Assembly (NCBI GenBank): GCA_017503735.1
Contig: JAFVSN010000005.1
Coordinates: 7,628-71,627 of the forward strand
From: Lachnospiraceae bacterium
Lineage (GTDB): Bacteria > Bacillota > Clostridia > Lachnospirales > Lachnospiraceae
Length of the DNA stretch: 64,000 bases
Direction of reading: 5' to 3'
Below the pieces are notes generated by a model that was not told the origin of the DNA, did no database searches, and saw nothing but the letters and a program-made list of their open reading frames with translations. Shown piece by piece: positions 175 through 45,096 of this stretch. How positions within the stretch are numbered: the first letter of the stretch is position 1; each line of letters begins with the position of its first letter. The position numbers and the translations under genes are program-made.

Positions 175-219
175 TGCAACCACAAGTTGCAAAAATAATA
201 TCTTCAAGTTGCTTGCAAC
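175..219 (+). promoter_or_regulatory. Two inverted repeats built on GCAAC/GTTGC; candidate operator sites
   Basis: TGCAACcacaaGTTGCA at 175-191 has 6-bp arms. GTTGCttGCAAC at 208-219 has 5-bp arms and overlaps the -35 hexamer of the downstream promoter. Confidence 0.45.
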
Positions 220-241
220 CGCTATGTTCTTTTGCTATAAT
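213..241 (+). promoter_or_regulatory. Sigma-70/SigA-type promoter of the HTH-glmM operon
   Basis: TTGCAA (213-218), a 17-nt spacer, then TATAAT (236-241). It lies about 40 nt upstream of the RBS AAGGAG and the ATG at 284. Confidence 0.6.
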
Positions 242-283
242 GGAGCACGTAGTATAGTAGTATGTGAAAAAAGGAGAACGTAT

Positions 284-1906
284 ATGACCATCGGACAGAA
301 ACTTATTCACTTACGAAACGTAGCGGATATGTCCCAGGAACAGCTTTCGGAAGAACTGGGGGTGTCCCGCCAGTCCATCTCTAAATGGGAAATGGACCAG
401 GCTCTTCCGCAGATTGACAAGGTAATCCAGCTTGCGGAGATTTTCGGCGTAACCACAGATGAATTGTTACTTGATAAAATAGAGATTAACCGTACTCCGG
501 TAAAGGGACCGAGAAAGTTAAAGTACTTCGGTACCGACGGATTCCGGGGCGAGGCAAATGTAAATCTGACTTCCATGCAGGCTTATAAGGTGGGACGGTT
601 CCTTGGATGGTACTTTTCTTCCAAGCTTTCCGGTTGTGGGAAACCGGGATATCGTCCGCGGATTGTCATCGGGAAAGATACCCGCCGTTCCAGTTATATG
701 TTGGAGTATTCCATTGTGGCGGGAATGACTGCCAGCGGAGCGGATGTGTACATGCTGCACGTTATCACCACGCCGGGAGTGTCCTATGTGACCCGGAAGG
801 ATGAGTTTGATTGCGGTATTATGATTACGGCGTCCCACAATCCGTTTGGAGATAACGGGATCAAGGTGCTGAACCGTTACGGTGAGAAACTGGACGATGA
901 GACTACAGCGTTAATTGAGGCTTATATCGACGGAGATTTACATGAGCTGGGTGTCACCGGTGAGGATTTGCCTTTAGCTCAGGGAGCGAAGCTCGGTTGT
1001 ATCCATGAGTATTCCGCAGGACGGAACCGTTACACCGGCTACTTGATTTCTCTGGCATCTAATTCCTATAAGAGACTGAAAATCGGTCTGGATTGTGCCA
1101 ACGGTGCGGCTTGGAGTATCGCAGGGGCGGTGTTTTCCGCATTGGGAGCCCAGACTTATGTCATCGGTGACGAGCCGGACGGTATCAACATCAACGAAGG
1201 TTGCGGTTCCACCCATATCGAGAAGTTAAAGAAGCTGGTAAAGGAAAAGCATTTAGATTTGGGTTTTGCTTTTGACGGTGACGCGGACCGTTGCATAGCG
1301 GTGGACGAAAACGGAAACGAAGTAGACGGGGATGCCATGATTTATATTCTCGGCAAGCGTATGAAGATGAGGGGAACCTTAAACGACAATACGGTCGTGA
1401 CTACGATTATGTCCAACTCCGGCTTTGTGGCAAGTCTTGAAGAAGCCGGAATGAAGTGTGTACAGACCAAAGTAGGCGACCGCTTTGTCTACGAATGTAT
1501 GCAGAATAACGATTACGCTATCGGCGGCGAGCAGTCCGGTCACATTATTTTAAAGAAATATGCCACCACCGGTGACGGCATTTTGACGGCGATTATGATT
1601 GCGGAGGAGCTTTGCGATTCCAAGTCTTCTTTGGCGAAGTTGGCAGAGCCGATTCATCTGTATCCGCAGTTTTTAAAGAATGTGAGAGTAAAGAATAAAG
1701 CGGCGGTGCTGGCCGATACGAAAGTATTAAAGGCAAAGGAAGAAGTGGAAAAGCTCATCAATAAAAAGGGAAGGGTACTTCTTCGGGAAAGCGGCACGGA
1801 GCCGGTGATTCGCGTGATGGTAGAGAGTGAATCTCAGGAAAGATGTGTAGAGTATGCCGAAATGATTGTAAAAGTAATTGTCGAAGGAGGACATTGCGTT
1901 GAATAA
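284..1906 (+). CDS. glmM: XRE-family HTH domain fused in frame to phosphoglucosamine mutase (GlmM)
   Basis: RBS AAGGAG lies 7 nt before ATG 284. The N-terminus, MTIGQKLIHLRNVADMSQEQLSEELGVSRQSISKWEMDQALPQIDKVIQLAEIFGVTTDELL, is a classic Cro/C1-type HTH. A linker follows, then a full-length GlmM (KYFGTDGFRG, phosphoserine loop TASHNP, metal loop FDGDADR, GEQSGH, RESGTEPVIRVMVE). No start codon separates the HTH from the mutase part. Confidence 0.9.
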   Translation: MTIGQKLIHLRNVADMSQEQLSEELGVSRQSISKWEMDQALPQIDKVIQLAEIFGVTTDELLLDKIEINRTPVKGPRKLKYFGTDGFRGEANVNLTSMQAYKVGRFLGWYFSSKLSGCGKPGYRPRIVIGKDTRRSSYMLEYSIVAGMTASGADVYMLHVITTPGVSYVTRKDEFDCGIMITASHNPFGDNGIKVLNRYGEKLDDETTALIEAYIDGDLHELGVTGEDLPLAQGAKLGCIHEYSAGRNRYTGYLISLASNSYKRLKIGLDCANGAAWSIAGAVFSALGAQTYVIGDEPDGININEGCGSTHIEKLKKLVKEKHLDLGFAFDGDADRCIAVDENGNEVDGDAMIYILGKRMKMRGTLNDNTVVTTIMSNSGFVASLEEAGMKCVQTKVGDRFVYECMQNNDYAIGGEQSGHIILKKYATTGDGILTAIMIAEELCDSKSSLAKLAEPIHLYPQFLKNVRVKNKAAVLADTKVLKAKEEVEKLINKKGRVLLRESGTEPVIRVMVESESQERCVEYAEMIVKVIVEGGHCVE

Positions 1907-10836: not shown

Positions 10837-13800
10837 TTACATCTCCTCCATTGTTTTATACTTCTGATACCGTACACCGGAATCTTCCTTTGCGGCCTTA
10901 AACAAGCTTTCCGCATGCTCCGGGAAGGTACGCTTTAGGGAAGCATAACGGGTCTCACCCTCAAGGAACTCTTCGTAGTCTAAGGACGGCTCCTTGGAGT
11001 CTACGGTTAACGGCTTTTCTGCGTTCGGATTGTAGCGGTATAAAATCCAGTAGCCTGCGTCAACGGCGCGCTTCATTTCCTGCTGTACATTTGCCATGCC
11101 GGCCTTGATGCCGTGAGCGGCACACGGAGTGTAAGCGATGATAACGGACGGTCCCTTGTGTTCCTCTGCTTCCTTGACTGCCTTGATTAACTGGTTCGGG
11201 TCTGCTCCCATAGCTACCTGAGCCACGTATACATTACCGTAGGTCTGGAAGATAGCACCCAGATCTTTCTTTCTGCTGCGCTTACCTGCGGAAGCGAACT
11301 GCGCTACTGCACCCAGCGGAGTAGCTTTGGAGCTCTGGCCGCCGGTGTTAGAGTAAACTTCGGTATCTACAACAAATACGTTAATGTCTTCTCCGCTGGC
11401 TACCACGTGGTCCAAACCGCCGAAGCCGATGTCGTAAGCCCAACCGTCGCCGCCGAACATCCAGAAGCACTTCTTGGATAACTGGTCCTTACGCTCTAAA
11501 ATCTTAGCCGCGGTAGCGGAATCCATGTTTTCCAGCTCTGCTACCAAAGCATCCGTGGTTTCACGGGATTTATCAAAATCATCAAAGCTGTCTAACCAGT
11601 TCTTTGCGGTTTCACTGCCGGTTTCTGCGGCGTATGCTTCCACTAAGGTCTTTTGCGCCTGACGCTGTTGCTTTACGGATAAGAACATACCCAGAGCAAG
11701 CTCTGCATTGTTCTCAAACAAGCTGTTGGTCCAAGCCGGTCCGAAACCACGCTTGTTGGTAGTGTACGGAATACCCGGCATCGGGGAGCCCCAAGCCTGG
11801 GAACATCCCGTAGCGTTTGCCCAGTATACACGGTCACCGAAGAGCTGGGTTAAAAGCTTTGCATACGGAGTCTCGCCGCAACCTGCACAGGCAGCGGAGA
11901 ACTCCAAGAGCGGCTGACGGAACTGGCTTCCCTTAATGGTGTACGGGGAGAATAAATCACCCTTGTCGGAAACAGAAAGTCCGTAGTTCCATAAGGTATT
12001 CTTTTCTTCGTTTAATTCTACCGGCTTCATAGTGATGGCAGGCTCCTTTGCCGGACAGCAAGCTACACAGCTGCCGCAACCGGTACAGTCGTAAGCGGAA
12101 ATCTGCATGGTAAAATGCAGACCCTTTGCAGCCGGACCGTTTGCCGGGGCAGTAATAAAGCCCTCCGGAGCGTTTGCCTTTTCTTCGTCGTTCAGTAAGT
12201 ACGGACGGATCACAGCGTGCGGACATACAAGAGCACACTTGTTACACTGGATACATTTCTGTGCATCCCAAACCGGTACCTGTAATGCGATACCGCGCTT
12301 TTCATAAGCGGTAAGACCAAGGTCGATGCGGCCGTCTTCGTAGCCCTTAAATGCGCTGACCGGAAGGTCGTCGCCTTTTTGCTTGTTAATCGGCTCCAAA
12401 ATACCGGTAACAACAGCCGGAACGTCAAGGGCAGCGGCTGCTTCGGATACTTCTTCCGCATCCTTCCAGGAAGCCGGAACCTCTACCTTTACAAGCTTCG
12501 TTGCGCCGGCATCAATTGCTGCTACGTTACGAGCTACGACATCGTCTCCCTTTGCAAAGTAGGTCTTCTTGGTAGCGGCCTTAATCATTTCCAGTGCTTC
12601 CTCGGTCGGGATAACTTCCATCAGTGCGAAGAAGGAAGCTTGAAGCACCGTATTGGTATGACTGCCGAGGCCTAATTCCTGAGCAATCTTATTTGCATCA
12701 ATGACATAGAAGTTGATGTTCTTCTCCGCAATCTGGTGGCGCACCTTTGCCGGAATGTGAGAAGTCAGCTCGTCGCCGGTCCAGGAACAGTTAAGAAGGA
12801 AGGTACCGCCTTCTACGATTTCGTCTACAATGTCATACTGGGTAATGTAGCTCTGGTTGTGACATGCTACGAAGTCTGCGCTCTTTACATAGTAGGAGCT
12901 GGTAATCGGCTCATCACTGAAACGTAAGTGGGACTTGGTCACACCGAAGGACTTCTTTGCATCATATTCAAAGTACGCCTGAGCGAACTTGTCGGTATTG
13001 TCGTTAATAATACGAACGGTGTTGTGGTTTGCACCTACGGTACCGTCACCGCCCAGACCCCAGAACTTACAACGAATCACGCCGGCCTTTGCATCAGAGA
13101 ACGGCTTTACCGGTAAGGAAAGATGGGTCACATCATCGTTGATACCGATGGTAAAGTTGGTCTTCGGAGTTGCGGAAGCAAGGTTCTCGAATACAGCTAA
13201 AATCTGTGCAGGGTCGGTATCCTTGGAGCTTAAGCCGTAACGGCCGCCGATGACCTTAATGTTTCTGTCGGAGCTCATCAGTACGCTGCATACATCCTCG
13301 AATAACGGCTCGCCGGCACTGCCCATTGCCTTACAACGGTCAAGCACTGCGATACGCTTCACGCTTTCCGGAAGAGCCTTTAAGAAGTACTCTGCGGAGA
13401 ACGGACGATATAAGTGTACCTGTAAGAAGCCTACCTTCTTGCCTTCTGCGCGAAGGGCATCCACCGCATCGCGGATGACGCCGCTGGCGGAACCCATGGC
13501 GATGATAACATCGGTAGCATCCGGATCGCCGTAGTAGTTAAATACATGGTACTCACGACCGGTAATCTTTGTAATTTCACCGAGATACTTTTCCACGATG
13601 TCCGGAAGGGCATTGTAGAACGTGTTGTGAGCTTCGCGCACCTGGAAGTAAACATCGCCGTTCTGTACGGTGTTACGTAAGGTCGGGTGCTCCGGATTTA
13701 AAGAACCGTCCCGGAATTCTTTTAAAGCGTCCTGATTGATAAGGCTGCCTACCGCATCCATATCCGGAAGCTCGATTTTATTGATTTCGTGGGAGGTACG

Positions 13801-14322
13801 GAAACCGTCAAAGAAGTGCATAAACGGAATCCGGCCTTCGATGGCGGATAAATGTGCCACCGGTGCTAAATCAGCTACTTCCTGGACACTGCCGGAAGAT
13901 AACATGGCAAAACCGGTCTGACGGCAGGCCATCACGTCGGAGTGGTCGCCGAAAATACCCATGGCATGAGTACCAACGGTACGGGATGCTACATGAAGTA
14001 CCGCCGGAAGACGTTCCCCGGCAATTCGGTACAGTACCGGCACCATTAACATGAGTCCCTGAGAGGACGTATATGTAGTAGCCAAAGAACCGGTTTGCAG
14101 TGCACCGTGTACAGCGGTAATCGCACCTGCTTCGGACTGCATTTCGGTTAAGGTTACGGTCTGGCCGAAGACGTTTTTACGTCCCTTTGCAGACCAGGCA
14201 TCGGTCAGTCCTGCCATCGGGGAGGACGGAGTGATCGGATAAATTGCGGCTATCTCGGTAAAGGGATAGGCCATATGTGCGGCAGCTTCGTTGCCGTCCA
14301 TGGTAACAAAATTCTTAGCCAT
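10837..14322 (-). CDS. nifJ: Pyruvate:ferredoxin (flavodoxin) oxidoreductase, single-polypeptide NifJ type
   Basis: About 1161 aa. N-terminus MAKNFVTMDGNEAAAHMAYPFTEIAAIYPITPSSPM. Two 4Fe-4S ferredoxin motifs (CIQCNKCALVCPH, CTGCGSCVACCP). TPP-binding GGDGWAYDIG. RBS AAGAGGT before ATG 14322; the ORF track extension to 14415 overlaps the upstream gene. Confidence 0.92.
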   Translation of the reverse strand: MAKNFVTMDGNEAAAHMAYPFTEIAAIYPITPSSPMAGLTDAWSAKGRKNVFGQTVTLTEMQSEAGAITAVHGALQTGSLATTYTSSQGLMLMVPVLYRIAGERLPAVLHVASRTVGTHAMGIFGDHSDVMACRQTGFAMLSSGSVQEVADLAPVAHLSAIEGRIPFMHFFDGFRTSHEINKIELPDMDAVGSLINQDALKEFRDGSLNPEHPTLRNTVQNGDVYFQVREAHNTFYNALPDIVEKYLGEITKITGREYHVFNYYGDPDATDVIIAMGSASGVIRDAVDALRAEGKKVGFLQVHLYRPFSAEYFLKALPESVKRIAVLDRCKAMGSAGEPLFEDVCSVLMSSDRNIKVIGGRYGLSSKDTDPAQILAVFENLASATPKTNFTIGINDDVTHLSLPVKPFSDAKAGVIRCKFWGLGGDGTVGANHNTVRIINDNTDKFAQAYFEYDAKKSFGVTKSHLRFSDEPITSSYYVKSADFVACHNQSYITQYDIVDEIVEGGTFLLNCSWTGDELTSHIPAKVRHQIAEKNINFYVIDANKIAQELGLGSHTNTVLQASFFALMEVIPTEEALEMIKAATKKTYFAKGDDVVARNVAAIDAGATKLVKVEVPASWKDAEEVSEAAAALDVPAVVTGILEPINKQKGDDLPVSAFKGYEDGRIDLGLTAYEKRGIALQVPVWDAQKCIQCNKCALVCPHAVIRPYLLNDEEKANAPEGFITAPANGPAAKGLHFTMQISAYDCTGCGSCVACCPAKEPAITMKPVELNEEKNTLWNYGLSVSDKGDLFSPYTIKGSQFRQPLLEFSAACAGCGETPYAKLLTQLFGDRVYWANATGCSQAWGSPMPGIPYTTNKRGFGPAWTNSLFENNAELALGMFLSVKQQRQAQKTLVEAYAAETGSETAKNWLDSFDDFDKSRETTDALVAELENMDSATAAKILERKDQLSKKCFWMFGGDGWAYDIGFGGLDHVVASGEDINVFVVDTEVYSNTGGQSSKATPLGAVAQFASAGKRSRKKDLGAIFQTYGNVYVAQVAMGADPNQLIKAVKEAEEHKGPSVIIAYTPCAAHGIKAGMANVQQEMKRAVDAGYWILYRYNPNAEKPLTVDSKEPSLDYEEFLEGETRYASLKRTFPEHAESLFKAAKEDSGVRYQKYKTMEEM

Positions 14323-14389: not shown

Positions 14390-16906
14390 CTAATTGTTAC
14401 TCTTTGCGGTGTCAATGCCTGCGGCGCCGACTAAACCGAGACGCTCCGCAGCTTCTTCACGCATTTTATATTTTAACACTTTTCCCGCTGCATTCATAGG
14501 GAAAGATTTCACAAATTCGATATATTTCGGAACTTTATGACGGGCCATGCTTGCGGCGATGTAGTCATGCATTTCCTCTATGGTCATGGACTTGCCGTCC
14601 TTTAAGATAATGCAAGCCATGGCTTCCTCACCGTACTTTTTATCCGGAACACCGATGACCTGTACATCCTGTACATTCGGATGGGTGTAAATGAATTCCT
14701 CGATTTCTTTCGGATAAATGTTTTCACCGCCACGGATAATCATATCCTTAAGACGGCCGGTGATGCGGTAGTTGCCGTCTTTATCCCGGCAGGCAAGGTC
14801 ACCGGAGTGGAGCCAGCCCTGTGCATCTACGGTACCGCGGGTTGCTTCCGGCATCTTATAGTAGCCCTTCATGGTATTGTAACCGCGGGAACAGAATTCG
14901 CCGTTTTCGCCGTCTGCCACTTCTTCGCCGGTTTCCGGATCGATAATTTTACACTCGATGTGAGGGAAGTTATAACCTACGGTGTCGCAACGTAAGTCTA
15001 ACGGGTCGGTCCATGCGGACATGGTGCTTCCCGGAGAAGACTCGGTCTGTCCGTATACGCTGACGATGCCGATCATATTCATTTCGTTAGGATCTGCCGC
15101 ACGGCGCATTAATTCCGGTGGGCACCCCGCACCTGCCATAATACCGGTACGCATATGGGAGAAGTCCGTCTTTCTGTAATCTTCGTGATTGAACATTGCG
15201 ATAAACATAGTCGGTACGCCGTTAAAGCAGGTGATACGCTCCTGATTGATGCAGGCCAGAGAGGACTTCGCGGAGAAGTACGGCATCGGGCATACGGTTG
15301 CACCGTGGGTCAGGGAAGCGGTCATGGAAAGTACCATACCGAAACAATGGAACATCGGTACCTGAATCATCATACGGTCCGCGGTGGAGAGCCCCATGCG
15401 GTCACCGATACATTTTCCGTTGTTGACTACATTATAATGGGTTAACATAACGCCCTTCGGGAAGCCGGTGGTTCCGGAGGTGTACTGCATATTACATACA
15501 TCTTCCGGCTTTACTCTTGCTGCCATACGGTTCAGTTCTTCCTGCGGAACTAAGTTACCGCGTTCCATGGCTTCGTCAAAGGTAAGACATCCCGGCTGCT
15601 TAAAGCCTACGGTGATAACGTTACGAAGGAACGGAAGACGTTTACAATGCAGCGGTTCCCCCGGTTTGCTTGTGGCAATTTCCGGACAAATCTCATTGAT
15701 GATTTCTCTATAGTTGGAATCCAGACAGGACTCTACCATAACTAAGGTGTGGGTATCGGACTGGCGGAACAAATAGTCTGCCTCGTGTCTTTTATAGGCG
15801 GTATTCACCGTAACCAAAACCGCACCGATTTTGGTGGTAGCCCAAAAGGTGATGAACCATGCCGGAACGTTGGTTGCCCAGATGGATACTTTGCTTCCGG
15901 CCTTTACACCCATGGAAATCAATGCCTTTGCAAATTGGTCTACATCCTCACGGAACTGTTCGTAGGTACGCACATAATCCAATGTGGTATATTTGAACGC
16001 ATACTGATCCGGGAACTCTTCTACCATACGATCCAGTACCTGAGAGAATGTCAGATTGATTAACTCATCCTTCTTCCATACATACTGACCGGTACCGTCA
16101 TGGTTCGGATACAATGCTTTTTTCTTGCCACGGGTCTTTTCAAAGCGGCTCATATAGTTGACAAAGTGGGTAAAAATCACCTCGTAATCCGGCAAATCTT
16201 CCATCCATTCGGTCTTCCACTCTAAGGAAATAAAGCCATCGTAGTCGATGGAAGAGAGGGCGCGCATAATGTCCGCCACCGGCATGGAACCTTCGCCGAT
16301 TAAGTTGTAGGTATCCTTGTCATCGGAGTCACGTAAGTGTACATGTTTTACATAAGCTCCGAGATTTTTAATGGTAGTATCCGCGCTTTCCTCACAGTCC
16401 CGGTACGGATGCTGTACATCCCATAATGCAGCCAGATAGTCGCAGGCAAAATCATCCAACATGGAGCGCAGACGGGCGGTGTCGGAAAAAATACCGCTGG
16501 TCTTCACAAGAACGGTTACTTCTGCAGCCTCTGCCTCCTGTAATAATTCGGTTAAACGGGTGCGGACAAGGTCTTCTTTATCCTGCAGGGCAACTACGGA
16601 TACATACGGTACCTCGGCCTGCTTTGCAATCTGGATTAATTGTTTTACCAAGGCAACCGCGTCGTTTCCCTCTACGGACAAATCGCAGGAGGTATCAAAA
16701 CACGGAATGGAGAGCCTCTTTTCTCTCAACTGACGAACGGTTGCGCCGATGTTATATTTATGGAACGGGCCGCTTTTTTCAGCCAAGGAAGGAACGTAAG
16801 GTAAATTGTAAACTTCCACACCTTCAAAGCGCATATCTACGCCGGCGGCAAGCCATTCTTCCCATGACAGGTGGGACCAACCTCTGGTAGAAAATGAAAG
16901 TTTCAT
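14390..16906 (-). CDS. Fusion protein: N-terminal xylose-isomerase-like TIM-barrel domain plus C-terminal AMP-forming acyl-CoA synthetase/ligase
   Basis: Residues 1 to about 265 form an AP_endonuc_2/sugar-phosphate-isomerase-like barrel (FEGVEVYN, HVHLRD, ISLEW). From about residue 290, all ANL adenylation motifs are present: YTSGTTGFPKG, YGQTE, SGD, GRLKDMIIRGGENIYP and the catalytic-Lys region AAGKVLK. RBS AGGAGG lies within the last codons of the upstream gene, with a 3-nt gap. Confidence 0.85.
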   Translation of the reverse strand: MKLSFSTRGWSHLSWEEWLAAGVDMRFEGVEVYNLPYVPSLAEKSGPFHKYNIGATVRQLREKRLSIPCFDTSCDLSVEGNDAVALVKQLIQIAKQAEVPYVSVVALQDKEDLVRTRLTELLQEAEAAEVTVLVKTSGIFSDTARLRSMLDDFACDYLAALWDVQHPYRDCEESADTTIKNLGAYVKHVHLRDSDDKDTYNLIGEGSMPVADIMRALSSIDYDGFISLEWKTEWMEDLPDYEVIFTHFVNYMSRFEKTRGKKKALYPNHDGTGQYVWKKDELINLTFSQVLDRMVEEFPDQYAFKYTTLDYVRTYEQFREDVDQFAKALISMGVKAGSKVSIWATNVPAWFITFWATTKIGAVLVTVNTAYKRHEADYLFRQSDTHTLVMVESCLDSNYREIINEICPEIATSKPGEPLHCKRLPFLRNVITVGFKQPGCLTFDEAMERGNLVPQEELNRMAARVKPEDVCNMQYTSGTTGFPKGVMLTHYNVVNNGKCIGDRMGLSTADRMMIQVPMFHCFGMVLSMTASLTHGATVCPMPYFSAKSSLACINQERITCFNGVPTMFIAMFNHEDYRKTDFSHMRTGIMAGAGCPPELMRRAADPNEMNMIGIVSVYGQTESSPGSTMSAWTDPLDLRCDTVGYNFPHIECKIIDPETGEEVADGENGEFCSRGYNTMKGYYKMPEATRGTVDAQGWLHSGDLACRDKDGNYRITGRLKDMIIRGGENIYPKEIEEFIYTHPNVQDVQVIGVPDKKYGEEAMACIILKDGKSMTIEEMHDYIAASMARHKVPKYIEFVKSFPMNAAGKVLKYKMREEAAERLGLVGAAGIDTAKSNN

Positions 16907-16909
16907 GGA

Positions 16910-18316
16910 TTAAGCCTCCTCATAAACAATTTTATTGATGGCACTGATATAGGCCTGAATACTGGAGCCGATAATATCAGTGGAAGTTCCGCGGCCGGAA
17001 TAGAGTTTTCCGTGGTCACGGAGCTTGATGATGGTTTCACCCATTGCCTCACGGCCTTCCGTTACGGAACGAATCTGGAAATCGTCCAGCTCGTAATGAC
17101 GGCCCAGAATATTTTCCAAAGCAAGGAATGCCGCATCCACCGGACCGTCGCCCAATGCAACACCCTCTAAGGTCTGGCCGTTCTTCTCAAGCTTCATCTG
17201 AGCCATGGAAGATGCGGTATTGCCGGCGGTAATGTGATAGCTGGTTAATATGTAAGTGGCCGGTACCTGCATAGCTGCGGAAGCGACGATGGTGTCCAGT
17301 TCCTTGGAGGAAATAACGTCTTTGCGTGCCGCTATCTTCCCGAATGCCTCCCATACCTTTGCACTGTCTTCTTCACTTAAGTCATAGCCTAATTTTTCAA
17401 CCGCTTTTAATACGGTAGTCATGGTATCCTGCGCGGTAAGGTTCATTTCCTCTACGTCATCCTGTACTCCGTTGTCAAACGGGGAATTCTTGCTGCGGGT
17501 GGTTTCGCAAATCCATGTAATTTGCTTTACGATGCGGTTCATTTCTACGGTACGAACCGAGCAAGTCACGCCGAAAGAATCTCCTCTGGTTGCAAGCAAA
17601 CGTGCAATGTTTGCAAGGGAAATCTGATTGGTGCAGTAAGCGGATGCCTTGATTTCCCGCACACCGTGCTTAATGGCCGCAATGGCACAGGCATCTGCCA
17701 TGGCCAATTCGTTGGAGCAGGAAAGACCGAGAACCACATTCTGAAGCTCCGGAACATTTTTATTTAAAGCATCAAAAAATTCGGCAAACTCTTCCGGAAG
17801 CATGGCACCGGTAGCGTCACATACCGTAACGGTTTTTGCACCGGCTGCAATGGCGGTTTTGATCGCCTGATATAAAAATGCTGCGTCGCTTCTGGTGGCA
17901 TCGTCTGCAATAAATTCAACATCCGGGGTCTTTTCGCAACATGCGGTTACGATTTCCTCGATGGCTTTTAACATGGCATCCGGTTTCTTGTGGAATAAGT
18001 ATTCCATTTGCACGGGACTGACGGAAGCCAATACCTGCAAACGAGGATTTTTTGCTTCTTTTACCGCATTCCATGTGGTCTCAACGCTTTCCGTATTTAA
18101 AGAAACCGGCACGGCAACAATACTGTTTTTTACTGCTGCTGCAATAGATTTGATGCGGAGCGCATCTACCTTCGGTTGGGAAATACCTTCCAGTTCGATG
18201 ACAGTTACATTTAGTTTATCTAATAGTTTCGGCAACTCGATTTTTTCTTTAAAGGATAGGGAGAATTCTTTCCCAGTCTGTTTTAACGTTGTGTCGCTGA
18301 TTCTGATTTGGTTCAT
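16910..18316 (-). CDS. 2-isopropylmalate synthase (LeuA/DRE-TIM) paralogue with substituted catalytic/metal residues and an intact C-terminal LeuA-type regulatory domain
   Basis: 468 aa from ATG 18316, with RBS AAAGGAGA. It is collinear with LeuA, but DTTLRDGEQ is DTTLKQTGKE, HxHxDxG is SCSNELA, NGIGERAGN is YCTNQISLAN, and ESGIHQDG is SPFDNGVQDD. The C-terminal approximately 130 aa keep the LeuA_dimer-like pattern (GDGPVDAAF...GREAMGE...GRGTSTDIIGSSIQAYISAIN). Confidence 0.8.
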   Translation of the reverse strand: MNQIRISDTTLKQTGKEFSLSFKEKIELPKLLDKLNVTVIELEGISQPKVDALRIKSIAAAVKNSIVAVPVSLNTESVETTWNAVKEAKNPRLQVLASVSPVQMEYLFHKKPDAMLKAIEEIVTACCEKTPDVEFIADDATRSDAAFLYQAIKTAIAAGAKTVTVCDATGAMLPEEFAEFFDALNKNVPELQNVVLGLSCSNELAMADACAIAAIKHGVREIKASAYCTNQISLANIARLLATRGDSFGVTCSVRTVEMNRIVKQITWICETTRSKNSPFDNGVQDDVEEMNLTAQDTMTTVLKAVEKLGYDLSEEDSAKVWEAFGKIAARKDVISSKELDTIVASAAMQVPATYILTSYHITAGNTASSMAQMKLEKNGQTLEGVALGDGPVDAAFLALENILGRHYELDDFQIRSVTEGREAMGETIIKLRDHGKLYSGRGTSTDIIGSSIQAYISAINKIVYEEA

Positions 18317-18473
18317 GATTTTGTCTCCTTTCATTTTACCTGTTTTCGCGCTGGCGATGCTTTGCATCAGCCCCCACCTCGTGACTCCGTCACTCGGTCG
18401 TGGGCGCGTTCGCATGCTCAGCGAGTTCGGAAGCAAGCTTCCGAACTCGCTTCGATGTTCACTTTGCCAGCAC

Positions 18474-18742
18474 GAAAAAAAGTCCCTGAAGTCATATGAC
18501 TCCAAGGACGAATAAACGATTCGCGGTACCACCTTGCTTACAGCCTCCTTACGGAAAACTGTCACTCTCGGACTCTATTAAGCCCATAGCCGATAACGAG
18601 GCTGACCGTACTCCACTACACAAATAGATATCCTTCGCAGAGTCGACTCGGGAGTGAGATTGCTGTCTTCCATCCGTACCGGTTCGCACCAACCACCGGC
18701 TCTCTGAAACCCTCAAAAAAGAAGCATAATTCCGTCACAGTC
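18474..18742 (-). promoter_or_regulatory. T-box riboswitch leader; probable Leu specifier CUC
   Basis: Read on the minus strand: a K-turn-like GACUGUGACGG...CCCGAGUC base, AG bulge AGAGAG, distal-loop GGUGCGAA, an F-box-like CUCGUUA, the T-box core GGUGGUACCGCG (+ strand 18522-18533), then a terminator stem (18482-18509) plus U7. In the specifier-loop region (AAUCUCACU) CUC is the only triplet followed by a purine. The UGGU bulge matches discriminator A73. Confidence 0.85.
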
Positions 18743-18767
18743 ATTCTTATCAATTAAAAACGAGACA

Positions 18768-18796
18768 ATTATAACACGTCAACGTGACAAAGTCAA
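18768..18796 (-). promoter_or_regulatory. Consensus SigA-type promoter for the T-box leader
   Basis: On the minus strand: TTGACT (18796-18791), a 17-nt spacer, then TATAAT (18773-18768). Confidence 0.7.
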
Positions 18797-44878: not shown

Positions 44879-44962
44879 GCAGTTGTGGCGGAATTGGCAT
44901 ACGCGCATGATTCAGGTTCATGTCCACGTACGTGGGTAGGGGTTCAAGTCCCCTCAACTGCA
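44879..44962 (+). tRNA. tRNA-Leu, anticodon CAG
   Basis: Manual cloverleaf: acceptor GCAGTTG/CAACTGC, A73, anticodon stem CATGA/TCATG, loop TTCAGGT (anticodon 44913-44915), a long variable arm and T-loop TTCAAGT. No CCA is encoded. Confidence 0.9.
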
Positions 44963-45001
44963 TCGTACCGTATGCAAAACAATGTGAGGTGCGTATTATA
45001 T

Positions 45002-45084
45002 GCGGAAATGCTGGAATTGGCAGACAGGCATGACTAAGGATCATGTGGTCCCCGACCGTGAGGGTTCAAGTCCCTTTTTCCGCA
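45002..45084 (+). tRNA. tRNA-Leu, anticodon AAG (A at wobble position 34)
   Basis: Manual cloverleaf: acceptor GCGGAAA/TTTCCGC, A73, D-stem CTG/CAG, anticodon stem CATGA/TCATG, loop CTAAGGA (anticodon 45036-45038, G37), variable-arm hairpin GGTC/GACC and T-arm GAGGG-TTCAAGT-CCCTT. Confidence 0.85.
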
Positions 45085-45096
45085 TTATAAAATTGT

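What the first reader, a model, noticed from the sequence alone, without database searches (positions are those of the whole stretch)
16910..18316. LeuA/DRE-TIM homologue that has lost every metal-binding and catalytic residue but keeps the leucine-binding regulatory domain
The protein aligns collinearly with 2-isopropylmalate synthase, but the catalytic signatures are replaced:
- R-D-G-E-Q in DTTLRDGEQ reads K-Q-T-G-K (codons at about 18266-18295).
- The H-x-H metal ligands read S-C-S (SCSNELA, codons at about 17714-17722).
- GERAGN reads NQISLAN.
- SGIHQDG reads NGVQDD.

In all characterised members of this superfamily (LeuA, CimA, NifV, HMG-CoA lyase, 4-hydroxy-2-oxovalerate aldolase) the Asp/His/His triad binds the essential divalent metal. 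The C-terminal approximately 130 residues, which form the allosteric leucine site and dimer interface in LeuA, look intact. It is therefore most likely a pseudoenzyme retained as a sensor or regulator, expressed from a leucine-responsive T-box and translationally coupled to the acyl-CoA ligase fusion.
Basis: partly seen in the sequence, partly recalled or inferred. Interest (0 to 1): 0.75.

Follow-up and report, generated by a model that had tools for sequence, protein, structure and literature searches.

The report
Dead LeuA copy in leucine-salvage operon
This gene encodes a catalytically dead copy of the first leucine-biosynthesis enzyme that keeps its leucine-sensing domain; in hundreds of gut and rumen Clostridia it sits directly in front of an acyl-CoA ligase, in a leucine-starvation-induced operon that most likely makes leucine from isovalerate.

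Summary
ORF 16910-18316 (-) is a 468-aa LeuA homologue: a confident TIM barrel plus a full LeuA_dimer domain. R-D-G-E-Q reads K-Q-T-G-K and H-x-H reads S-C-S. The GERAGN loop has a 4-residue deletion.

The loss is family-wide: 0 of 107 diverse relatives keep even two of the three metal ligands. The regulatory domain is the best-conserved part, including the glycine whose mutation (G462D) is used to remove feedback inhibition of E. coli LeuA.

At least 568 species genomes encode a relative. In 77 of the 80 loci examined, the TIM-barrel/acyl-CoA-ligase fusion follows within a few bases. All 55 T-boxes whose specifier could be read carry a Leu codon.

Related clusters add MbcS-like ligases behind Ile and Val T-boxes, a VorB-type 2-oxoacid:ferredoxin oxidoreductase and IlvE. 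The window carries a PFOR instead.

Best reading: the operon converts isovalerate to leucine by reductive carboxylation, and the dead LeuA acts as a leucine-sensing subunit of the ligase. The pathway context is strongly supported by comparative genomics. The sensor role is inferred, not shown. I found no description of this family.

The parts
18768..18796 (-). Promoter-like site TTGACT-17 nt-TATAAT with TG extension, upstream of the T-box
   Evidence: Consensus scan, 11 of 12 matches. This is a consensus match only; function is not shown.
18501..18747 (-). T-box leader. The specifier codon CUC (Leu) is at 18656-18658 and the T-box sequence GGUGGUACCGCG is near 18522-18533.
   Evidence: Rfam RF00230, 106.3 bits (gathering 93), E 1.8e-22, full model 1-219. 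Sequence read. The same register gives Leu codons in 55 of 55 resolved homologous leaders.
18472..18509 (-). Intrinsic terminator of the T-box: 12-bp stem, 4-nt loop, then a T-run
   Evidence: Terminator scan. It overlaps the 3' end of the T-box model.
18317..18471 (-). Leader spacer between the terminator and the start codon. It includes about 130 nt absent from the closest relative and a perfect 13-nt-arm palindrome at 18421-18450. The RBS is AAAGGAG.
   Evidence: Sequence. The T-box motif lies 217 nt upstream of the start codon here and 86 nt upstream in L001. The palindrome is unique in the window. Role unknown.
16910..18316 (-). LeuA-like pseudoenzyme, 468 aa: degenerate DRE-TIM barrel (1-270), shortened linker (271-335), LeuA regulatory/dimerisation domain (336-468)
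14390..16906 (-). Fusion protein, 838 aa: AP_endonuc_2 (xylose-isomerase-like) TIM barrel (about 1-270) plus ANL acyl-CoA ligase (about 285-838). The presumed substrate is isovalerate. Its start lies 3 nt after the LeuA-like stop codon.
   Evidence: Pfam and NCBIfam. It is adjacent to the LeuA-like gene in 77 of 80 loci. Junction sequence.
10837..14322 (-). Single-chain pyruvate/2-oxoacid:ferredoxin oxidoreductase (PFOR type). There is a 67-nt gap after the ligase and no terminator-like site between them. It is the presumed reductive carboxylase.
   Evidence: TIGR02176, 1712.9 bits against a cut-off of 911. Start codon read. No terminator on the - strand. The same position is conserved in L001, L002, L005, L007, L026, L059 and L077, with partial PFOR matches at the contig ends of L010 and L028.

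Best explanation
The gene encodes a catalytically dead paralogue of 2-isopropylmalate synthase. It has lost the metal site, the catalytic Arg, Glu and Thr, and the entire His-containing subdomain-I motif. It keeps the barrel as a fold and keeps the C-terminal leucine-binding/dimerisation domain under strong constraint.

It is made from one mRNA, in tight translational coupling, with an AP_endonuc_2 TIM-barrel/acyl-CoA-ligase fusion and, in this genome, a PFOR-type 2-oxoacid:ferredoxin oxidoreductase. All three lie behind a T-box that reads uncharged tRNA-Leu.

Proposed mechanism:
1. When leucyl-tRNA charging falls, the T-box antiterminates.
2. The ligase activates isovalerate to isovaleryl-CoA.
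3. The oxidoreductase reductively carboxylates isovaleryl-CoA to 2-ketoisocaproate.
4. A branched-chain aminotransferase makes leucine. This is the isovalerate carboxylation-plus-amination route known from rumen microbiology.
5. The LeuA-like protein, probably a dimer through its regulatory domain, binds the ligase fusion and passes leucine occupancy on as feedback inhibition of this ATP-consuming first step. It plays the role that the regulatory domain plays within LeuA in the de novo pathway.

Shown by tests here: loss of catalytic residues, retention of the regulatory domain, the T-box with its specifier, gene coupling and cluster content.

Inferred: ligase substrate, direction of flux, complex formation, leucine binding and inhibition.
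For: Dead enzyme:
- Alignments to LeuA structures and to E. coli LeuA show the substitutions and deletions.
- 0 of 107 family members keep two of the three metal ligands.
- The best LeuA equivalog model scores 303 bits against a cut-off of 532.

Fold kept:
- AlphaFold2 mean pLDDT 91.8.
- Foldseek against LeuA catalytic domains: 3ewb TM 0.93 (rmsd 1.8 A), 3eeg 0.91-0.92, 3rmj 0.81-0.84. M. tuberculosis LeuA aligns over about 540 columns.

Regulatory domain is the constrained part:
- Mean top-residue frequency is 0.69, against 0.46 for the barrel. 32 of 133 columns are at least 90% conserved, against 16 of 270.
- G389-x-G-P-[IV]-D-A, G441-x-G-x-S-T-D and A459-x-N-K are kept.
- E. coli G462 aligns with G426, which is conserved in 79 of 81 locus sequences. 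The G462D allele is used to remove feedback inhibition in PMC6345581.
- The ligand-loop residue is V/I as in LeuA, not Tyr as in the Ile-inhibited citramalate synthase 3f6g.

Coupling:
- At least 568 species genomes encode a relative.
- The fusion gene follows in 77 of the 80 loci examined. The other 3 are cut by contig ends.
- The pairing persists at 35% identity (L083).
- A Shine-Dalgarno sequence lies inside the upstream gene and the spacer is 3 nt.

Leucine logic:
- T-box in the window.
- The T-box motif is found upstream in 71 of 81 sequences examined, the window included.
- 55 of 55 resolved specifiers are Leu codons.

Pathway:
- In Oscillospiraceae-type loci, paralogous ligases sit behind T-boxes with AUC (Ile, 29 loci) and GUC (Val, 15 loci) specifiers.
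- Their best family hit is MbcS. MbcS activates 2-methylbutyrate and isobutyrate and is poor on isovalerate (PMC10026030). This fits a separate ligase lineage for Leu: the two lineages share only 25% identity.
- The clusters carry a VorB-type oxidoreductase (527 bits against a cut-off of 399), a Fer4 delta subunit and IlvE (497 bits against 307). IlvE is present in 18 loci. It lies between the oxidoreductase gamma subunit and the LeuA-like gene in five of them, and between the ligase and PFOR in L026.
- Leucine synthesis by carboxylation of isovalerate followed by amination is stated in PMC7356843.
Against: - There is no direct evidence of leucine binding, of a LeuA-like/ligase complex, or of any effect on ligase activity.
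- The ligase domain's best family (PRK12583) says nothing about substrate and scores below its cut-off.
- If only a leucine sensor were needed, it is unclear why a whole degenerate barrel is retained, and why a second TIM barrel with conserved Asp/His/Glu residues is fused to the ligase. One or both barrels may do something not considered here.
- About 10 of 80 loci have no T-box directly upstream.
- A distant family member stands alone without the ligase (L082).
- The window has no aminotransferase gene.
- I could not test whether the PFOR here is a dedicated paralogue or the housekeeping enzyme.
- I could not test whether these genomes lack or keep leuABCD.
Confidence: 0.5

Rival explanations
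1. Same operon and pathway, but the LeuA-like protein is an obligate structural or assembly subunit. It would be a scaffold that dimerises the ligase or docks it to the oxidoreductase, with no leucine sensing. On this view the regulatory domain is kept only as a dimerisation module.
For: Tight gene coupling. The LeuA_dimer domain is also LeuA's dimer interface, as the Pfam name says. The barrel fold is retained with conserved structural residues and two family-specific invariants, F22 and K111, which could be interface residues.
Against: The conserved residues of the regulatory domain include the G-x-G-P-x-D-A loop and G426, the position of the E. coli feedback-resistance mutation. Dimerisation alone would not be expected to constrain these so strongly.
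Confidence: 0.2
2. The degenerate barrel has acquired a new ligand-binding or catalytic role. Examples would be binding 2-ketoisocaproate, isovaleryl-CoA or CoA, or metal-independent chemistry using the conserved E105, Y106, K111, D139, R142 and D167. On this view the protein is not a pure pseudoenzyme.
For: A set of polar barrel residues is at least 90% conserved, and K111 is invariant. LeuA barrels naturally bind a branched 2-oxoacid and an acyl-CoA (established knowledge of the family).
Against: Most of these conserved residues are also conserved in canonical LeuA motifs (TSxxHMEY, EDAxR, PDT). They look like fold maintenance; K111 is Lys in N. meningitidis LeuA too. Every position known to act in catalysis varies freely. 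The pathway needs no additional chemical step.
Confidence: 0.1
3. The operon scavenges isovalerate to supply isovaleryl-CoA primers for branched-chain fatty acid (membrane) synthesis when leucine is scarce, as MbcS does in S. aureus. It would not be for making leucine. The LeuA-like protein would still be an accessory subunit.
For: MbcS, the best family hit of the Ile and Val paralogues, serves lipid primer supply (PMC10026030). Leucine is the normal source of isovaleryl-CoA.
Against: The clusters carry a 2-oxoacid:ferredoxin oxidoreductase and IlvE under the same control. Inducing these during starvation for the amino acid makes sense only in the synthetic direction.
Confidence: 0.1
4. It is an active isopropylmalate or citramalate synthase whose ligands are shifted rather than lost, or it is a decaying pseudogene.
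For: Overall collinearity with LeuA.
Against: Single-sequence, profile and structure comparisons all place Ser, Cys and Ser at the H-x-H position and Gln at the Asp position. No column in the barrel holds a conserved His, apart from position 109 (71 of 107), which is not a ligand position. The subdomain-I motif is deleted. Against decay: intact ORFs of about 460-475 aa occur in at least 568 species genomes and remain recognisable down to 33% identity, with a strongly conserved C-terminal domain.
Confidence: 0.03

Closest known systems
2-Isopropylmalate synthase LeuA (short bacterial form, e.g. E. coli b0074; structures 3rmj, 3ewb, 3eeg)
   Same: Collinear domain order: DRE-TIM barrel, linker, LeuA_dimer regulatory domain. 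Barrel TM-score is 0.81-0.93. The regulatory-domain motifs and the G462-equivalent glycine are kept.
   Different: The Asp/His/His metal site, catalytic Arg, Glu and Thr are absent. There is a 4-residue deletion in GERAGN and a 30-residue deletion that removes AFAHSSGIHQDG. It scores far below the equivalog cut-offs. It lies next to a ligase, not in a leu operon.
HisZ, the catalytically inactive histidyl-tRNA-synthetase paralogue that is the regulatory subunit of short-form ATP phosphoribosyltransferase HisG (from my own knowledge; not tested here)
   Same: A dead paralogue of an enzyme from the same amino acid's metabolism, encoded beside the first enzyme of a biosynthetic route. In HisZ it confers end-product (histidine) inhibition on a partner that lacks its own sensor.
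   Different: Different fold and ancestry. For HisZ the complex and the allostery are demonstrated; here both are inferred. The partner here also carries an extra TIM-barrel domain.
Isoacid assimilation by reductive carboxylation in rumen bacteria: isovalerate to leucine, 2-methylbutyrate to isoleucine, isobutyrate to valine
   Same: The gene content matches the required steps: acyl-CoA ligases, a VorB-type or PFOR-type 2-oxoacid:ferredoxin oxidoreductase, and IlvE. T-boxes for exactly Leu, Ile and Val control them. The route is cited in PMC7356843.
   Different: I found no gene-level description of dedicated, amino-acid-specific ligases with sensor-type accessory modules. PMC7709123 still treats activation as a side activity of acetyl-CoA synthetase and calls the reverse reaction unproven.
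MbcS, methylbutyryl-CoA synthetase of S. aureus (PMC10026030)
   Same: It is the best family match of the Ile and Val T-box ligases in the related clusters. Its preference for 2-methylbutyrate and isobutyrate and its poor use of isovalerate mirror the split between the Ile/Val ligases and the separate Leu ligase lineage.
   Different: The window's ligase is only about 25% identical to those paralogues. MbcS has no N-terminal accessory domain or LeuA-like partner, and it serves lipid primer supply.

Membership tests
2-isopropylmalate synthase / DRE-TIM Claisen-condensing enzymes | HMGL-like (beta/alpha)8 barrel | tested here: met
   PF00682, E 5.5e-32. AlphaFold2 pLDDT 91.8. Foldseek TM 0.81-0.93 to 3ewb, 3eeg and 3rmj.
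2-isopropylmalate synthase / DRE-TIM Claisen-condensing enzymes | Asp + His + His divalent-metal site (R-D of DTTLRDGEQ; H-x-H) | tested here: not met
   Q13, S199 and S201 occupy these positions. 0 of 107 relatives have even two of the three ligands.
2-isopropylmalate synthase / DRE-TIM Claisen-condensing enzymes | Catalytic Arg (RD), Glu (EDA), Thr (PDTVG) and the subdomain-I His motif (HxSGIHQDG) | tested here: not met
   K12, D138 and A168 occupy these positions, which vary freely across the family. E. coli residues 279-308, which carry the motif, are deleted.
2-isopropylmalate synthase / DRE-TIM Claisen-condensing enzymes | C-terminal LeuA allosteric/dimerisation domain | tested here: met
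   PF08502, positions 2-130 of 131, E 4.8e-31. It is the most conserved region of the family.
2-isopropylmalate synthase / DRE-TIM Claisen-condensing enzymes | Score above the curated equivalog cut-off | tested here: not met
   The best model is NF002086 at 303 bits against 532. TIGR00973 scores 269 against 599.
2-isopropylmalate synthase / DRE-TIM Claisen-condensing enzymes | Acetyl-CoA + 2-oxoisovalerate condensation activity | not testable with these tools
   Needs an enzyme assay.
T-box leader (RF00230), Leu class | Covariance-model score above gathering; specifier loop, T-box sequence, and a terminator that overlaps the antiterminator | tested here: met
   106.3 bits against 93. Specifier CUC at 18656-18658. 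GGUGGUACCGCG is present. Terminator at 18482-18509 plus a T-run. Leu codons in 55 of 55 resolved orthologous leaders.
T-box leader (RF00230), Leu class | Antitermination dependent on uncharged tRNA-Leu | not testable with these tools
   Needs in vitro transcription or a reporter assay.
Dead-paralogue regulatory subunit (HisZ-like concept) | Paralogue of an enzyme that lacks catalytic residues but is under purifying selection | tested here: met
   Intact ORFs occur in at least 568 species genomes.
Dead-paralogue regulatory subunit (HisZ-like concept) | Stable complex with the enzyme it regulates | not testable with these tools
   Only indirect evidence: adjacency in 77 of 80 loci and a 3-nt spacer. 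No natural fusion of the two proteins was seen.
Dead-paralogue regulatory subunit (HisZ-like concept) | Binds the end product and transmits inhibition | not testable with these tools
   Motif conservation only.
Isoacid-to-BCAA reductive carboxylation pathway | Short branched-chain acyl-CoA ligase | tested here: inconclusive
   The window's ligase best matches PRK12583 at 676 bits, below the 832 cut-off. The Ile paralogue tested (L029) best matches MbcS at 424 bits, below 850. Substrates were not assayed.
Isoacid-to-BCAA reductive carboxylation pathway | 2-Oxoacid:ferredoxin oxidoreductase in the same unit | tested here: met
   PFOR in the window: TIGR02176, 1713 bits. VorB in related clusters: 527 bits against a cut-off of 399. 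Conserved linkage.
Isoacid-to-BCAA reductive carboxylation pathway | Branched-chain aminotransferase | tested here: inconclusive
   IlvE (497 bits against 307) lies in or next to the cluster in 18 related loci. None is present in this 64-kb window.
Isoacid-to-BCAA reductive carboxylation pathway | Induction by shortage of the cognate amino acid | tested here: met
   Leu, Ile and Val specifier T-boxes lie in front of the three ligase units.

The most novel reading that the evidence does not exclude
A LeuA-derived pseudoenzyme is the leucine sensor of a previously unassigned, widespread gene system for isoacid assimilation in gut and rumen Clostridia. The system has three amino-acid-specific CoA ligases, for isovalerate, 2-methylbutyrate and isobutyrate. 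Each is switched on by its own T-box (Leu, Ile, Val). Each would be gated post-translationally by a recruited sensor module: dead LeuA plus a TIM barrel for Leu, and HTH-cupin domains for Ile and Val. All three feed one 2-oxoacid:ferredoxin oxidoreductase and IlvE. This would be a new example of an allosteric domain transplanted, as a dead paralogue, from the de novo pathway's first enzyme to the salvage pathway's first enzyme.
Probability: 0.35. Interest if true: 0.85.

Novelty: new variant of a known kind. Interest (0 to 1): 0.72.

Why it matters
Rumen and gut Clostridia have been known for decades to need or use isoacids (isovalerate, isobutyrate, 2-methylbutyrate) for branched-chain amino acid synthesis, and isoacids are used as feed additives. 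The genes that activate them have remained assumed rather than identified; PMC7709123 still invokes a side activity of acetyl-CoA synthetase.

This locus and its relatives give a concrete, testable gene set with built-in specificity labels: the T-box specifier codons.

The LeuA-like protein itself would be a clear case of a pseudoenzyme kept for its allosteric domain, present in hundreds of species and currently annotated 'hypothetical protein'.

It also has a practical consequence. Automated annotation that calls this gene leuA would wrongly predict leucine prototrophy by the standard pathway.

Tried and rejected
- Literature. Seven full-text searches were run in all. Six looked for the pathway genes, a LeuA pseudoenzyme, or LeuA_dimer/LeuA-like proteins. 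They found no description of this family or cluster, only background on the pathway. The library lacks most subscription journals, so absence is weak evidence.
- Rosetta-stone fusion. A database search with the TIM domain returned only fragments and TIM-ligase fusions, with no fusion to the LeuA-like protein. One apparent stand-alone TIM protein (P0375, L081) is a fusion gene split into two overlapping calls, probably by a frameshift.
- PDB sequence search with the regulatory domain alone gave only a marginal hit to the citramalate synthase regulatory domain (E 0.49). The leucine pocket therefore could not be mapped residue by residue. I used motif conservation and the E. coli G462 position instead.
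- PDB search with the AP_endonuc_2 domain gave only remote hits (MJ1311, E 1.5e-5), so no function can be assigned to that domain.
- Canonical leuA was looked for in the window and in the flanks of the 80 loci. None was found.
- A complex prediction for LeuA-like plus fusion was not attempted. The structure tool takes single chains of at most 1200 aa, restricts which sequences may be submitted, and returns no inter-domain error map.
- Shifted-ligand and pseudogene readings were considered and rejected (see rivals).
Full report
**1. What is at the coordinates**

ORF 16910-18316 on the minus strand encodes 468 aa. Pfam finds an HMGL-like barrel at residues 4-225 (E 5.5e-32) and a complete LeuA_dimer domain at 335-463, covering profile positions 2-130 of 131 (E 4.8e-31). 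All NCBIfam LeuA equivalog models hit, but far below their cut-offs; the best scores 303 bits against 532.

Upstream lie:
- a strong promoter-like site at 18768-18796;
- a T-box leader at 18501-18747 (Rfam, 106.3 bits against a gathering score of 93), with specifier CUC (Leu) at 18656-18658;
- its terminator at 18482-18509.

Downstream, 3 nt after the stop codon and with a GAGGAGG Shine-Dalgarno sequence inside the last codons, starts an 838-aa fusion of an AP_endonuc_2 TIM barrel and an ANL acyl-CoA ligase. After a further 67 nt, with no terminator-like site, comes a single-chain PFOR (TIGR02176, 1713 bits).

**2. Are the catalytic residues really lost?**

Yes. A phmmer alignment to LeuA structures, a 107-sequence family profile against PDB and a multiple alignment with E. 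coli LeuA all give the same register.

| Canonical LeuA feature (E. coli) | LeuA-like protein |
|---|---|
| R13-D14-G15-E16-Q17 | K12-Q13-T14-G15-K16 |
| H202, H204 | S199, S201 |
| E of E-D-A | D138 |
| T of P-D-T-V-G | A168 |
| residues 235-238, within G-E-R-A-G-N | deleted |
| residues 279-308, the whole A-F-A-H-S-S-G-I-H-Q-D-G subdomain-I segment | deleted |

The motifs are removed, not rewritten.

An AlphaFold2 model built on the family alignment is confident (mean pLDDT 91.8), except for a disordered loop at 274-286 where the deleted segment would sit. Foldseek places the barrel on LeuA catalytic domains: 3ewb TM 0.93 (rmsd 1.8 A), 3eeg 0.91-0.92, 3rmj 0.81-0.84. M. tuberculosis LeuA aligns over about 540 columns. 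The ligands are lost, not shifted.

**3. Is this one odd sequence or a family?**

It is a family.
- An exhaustive search of 1.8 billion cluster representatives finds on the order of 100 clusters of 455-480-aa relatives, down to about 33% identity. Canonical LeuAs of about 500-516 aa appear only after them, at 30-34% identity.
- A scan of one genome per species finds at least 568 genomes with a relative. These are Lachnospiraceae, Oscillospiraceae (many Faecousia), Acutalibacteraceae and a Peptococcaceae MAG, mostly from ruminant and human gut.
- In 107 diverse members the catalytic positions vary freely. Position 13 is Asp in 8, position 199 is His in 2, position 201 is His in 1. None has two of the three.
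- Conservation is inverted relative to what one expects of an enzyme. Mean top-residue frequency is 0.46 in the barrel and 0.69 in the regulatory domain.
- The regulatory-domain motifs G389-x-G-P-[IV]-D-A, G441-x-G-x-S-T-D and A459-x-N-K are nearly invariant.
- E. coli G462 aligns with G426, conserved in 79 of 81 locus sequences. The G462D allele is used to abolish feedback inhibition (PMC6345581).
- In the ligand loop the family has Val/Ile, as LeuA does. The Ile-inhibited citramalate synthase has Tyr there.

**4. Genomic context**

In 77 of 80 fetched loci the LeuA-like gene is followed within a few bases by the same TIM-ligase fusion. The other three are cut by contig ends. The pairing is still present at 35% identity (L083).

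The T-box core motif lies upstream in 71 of 81 sequences, the window included. In every one of the 55 leaders where the specifier could be read it is a Leu codon: CUG 38, CUC 14, CUA 2, CUU 1.

Two cluster types exist:
- Lachnospiraceae type (this window, L001, L002, L005, L007, L026, L059, L077): T-box(Leu), LeuA-like, TIM-ligase, PFOR. L026 has IlvE between ligase and PFOR.
- Oscillospiraceae type: the Leu unit lies next to two paralogous ligases with N-terminal HTH+cupin domains, then a CbiA-like ORF, a Fer4 delta subunit and oxidoreductase alpha/beta/gamma subunits. Often a CN-hydrolase or IlvE follows.

Each HTH-cupin ligase has its own T-box. The specifier is AUC (Ile) for the first, in 29 loci, and GUC (Val) for the second, in 15 loci.

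The oxidoreductase alpha subunit passes the VorB (2-oxoisovalerate) model: 527 bits against a cut-off of 399. The Ile ligase's best family is MbcS. MbcS activates 2-methylbutyrate and isobutyrate but is poor on isovalerate (PMC10026030). This matches the finding that the Leu unit uses a different ligase lineage, only about 25% identical, while the Ile and Val ligases are 74% identical to each other.

**5. Interpretation**

T-boxes switch on genes that restore charging of the cognate tRNA. Three ligases labelled Leu, Ile and Val, a 2-oxoacid:ferredoxin oxidoreductase and IlvE are exactly the parts needed to convert isovalerate, 2-methylbutyrate and isobutyrate into leucine, isoleucine and valine by reductive carboxylation and transamination. 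Leucine synthesis by that route in the rumen is cited in PMC7356843. In the literature I could search, the activating enzymes are still only assumed (PMC7709123).

Ligase, oxidoreductase and aminotransferase account for all the chemistry, so the LeuA-like protein has no chemical step left to perform. It occupies, together with the fused AP_endonuc_2 barrel, the position that sensor-type HTH-cupin domains occupy in the Ile and Val ligases.

The most economical reading is that it is the leucine-sensing, probably dimeric, regulatory subunit of the isovalerate ligase. It would inhibit an ATP-consuming committed step when leucine is sufficient, while the T-box acts at the transcript level. A precedent in kind is HisZ, the dead HisRS paralogue that makes HisG histidine-sensitive (my own knowledge).

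I put about 0.9 on 'catalytically dead LeuA paralogue', about 0.75-0.8 on the isovalerate-to-leucine operon, and about 0.45-0.5 on the leucine-sensor role.

**6. Caveats**

- Nothing here shows leucine binding, complex formation, ligase substrate or direction of flux.
- The retained barrel has conserved polar residues and two family-specific invariants, F22 and K111. Most belong to canonical LeuA structural motifs, but a new binding function cannot be excluded.
- The fused AP_endonuc_2 domain keeps Asp/His/Glu residues but has an invariant Lys where the first metal-binding Glu normally sits. Its role is unknown.
- About 10 of 80 loci lack a T-box directly upstream. In several of these the gene follows the oxidoreductase and IlvE genes on the same strand, so it may be part of a longer operon.
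- One distant member stands alone (L082).
- I could not determine whether carriers also have leuABCD or a second PFOR.

**7. Novelty**

Database names for the protein are 'hypothetical protein', and for its partner 'AMP-binding protein' or 'sugar phosphate isomerase/epimerase'. No paper found in six topic searches describes the family or the cluster.

It fails the defining catalytic tests for LeuA membership, so it should not be filed as an isopropylmalate synthase. It is best described as a new LeuA-derived pseudoenzyme family: a new variant of the known 'dead paralogue as regulatory subunit' theme, embedded in a gene-level candidate for a long-known but genetically unassigned pathway.

Noticed in passing
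L051 14221-16617 and 16970-19264; L029 10100-12376: Acyl-CoA ligases fused to N-terminal HTH_19 + Cupin_2 domains. Each sits behind its own T-box, with specifier AUC (Ile) or GUC (Val). The ligase domains are 74% identical to each other and the HTH-cupin parts 42%. The best family hit is MbcS. An HTH fused to an adenylating enzyme recalls BirA, so these could be enzyme-repressors or carry fused amino-acid sensors.
   Followed up: partly
L029 12385-13083; L051 19274-19975: A CbiA/ParA-like ORF of about 232 aa is conserved between the ligases and the oxidoreductase genes in nearly all Oscillospiraceae-type clusters. It has no NCBIfam match and its role is unknown.
   Followed up: no
L029 15637-16422: A CN_hydrolase (amidohydrolase/nitrilase family) follows the oxidoreductase gamma subunit in many clusters. 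It might be an omega-amidase that pulls a glutamine-dependent transamination forward. This is speculative.
   Followed up: no
window 18317-18481: The window has about 130 nt between the T-box terminator and the start codon that the closest relative (L001) lacks. The stretch includes a perfect palindrome with 13-nt arms at 18421-18450, found only once in the window.
   Followed up: partly
window 44879-44962 and 45001-45085: Two adjacent tRNA-Leu genes with anticodons CAG and AAG. An A34 leucine tRNA is unusual in bacteria (my own knowledge). The operon's T-box specifier here is CUC, whereas Oscillospiraceae relatives mostly use CUG.
   Followed up: no
window 16097-16906 (N-terminal domain of the fusion protein): In the AP_endonuc_2 barrel, the position of the first canonical metal-binding Glu is an invariant Lys (K135). 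D163, H166, H188, H190, D193 and E229 stay conserved across 65 orthologues. It may be a second modified TIM barrel in the same system.
   Followed up: partly
proteins P0255 and P0266: LeuA homologues of 497 and 516 aa read DTTLRDGG/DTTLRDGA instead of RDGEQ, while keeping R-D and H-x-H. They may be functionally shifted relatives lying between canonical LeuA and the dead family.
   Followed up: no
L082 1287-2693: A distant member of the family (33% identity) stands alone, with no TIM-ligase neighbour and no T-box motif. It keeps R-D but lacks both His ligands.
   Followed up: partly
window 209-1906: The ORF containing GlmM (phosphoglucosamine mutase, residues 105-557) extends about 100 aa upstream in frame. 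That extension matches an RstR-like HTH repressor domain (residues 26-92). It may be a fusion, or an artefact of taking the first possible start codon.
   Followed up: no
L051 7597-7697; L026 331-509: A THF riboswitch and a Clostridiales-1 RNA lie in the flanks of related loci. They are unrelated to the finding.
   Followed up: no
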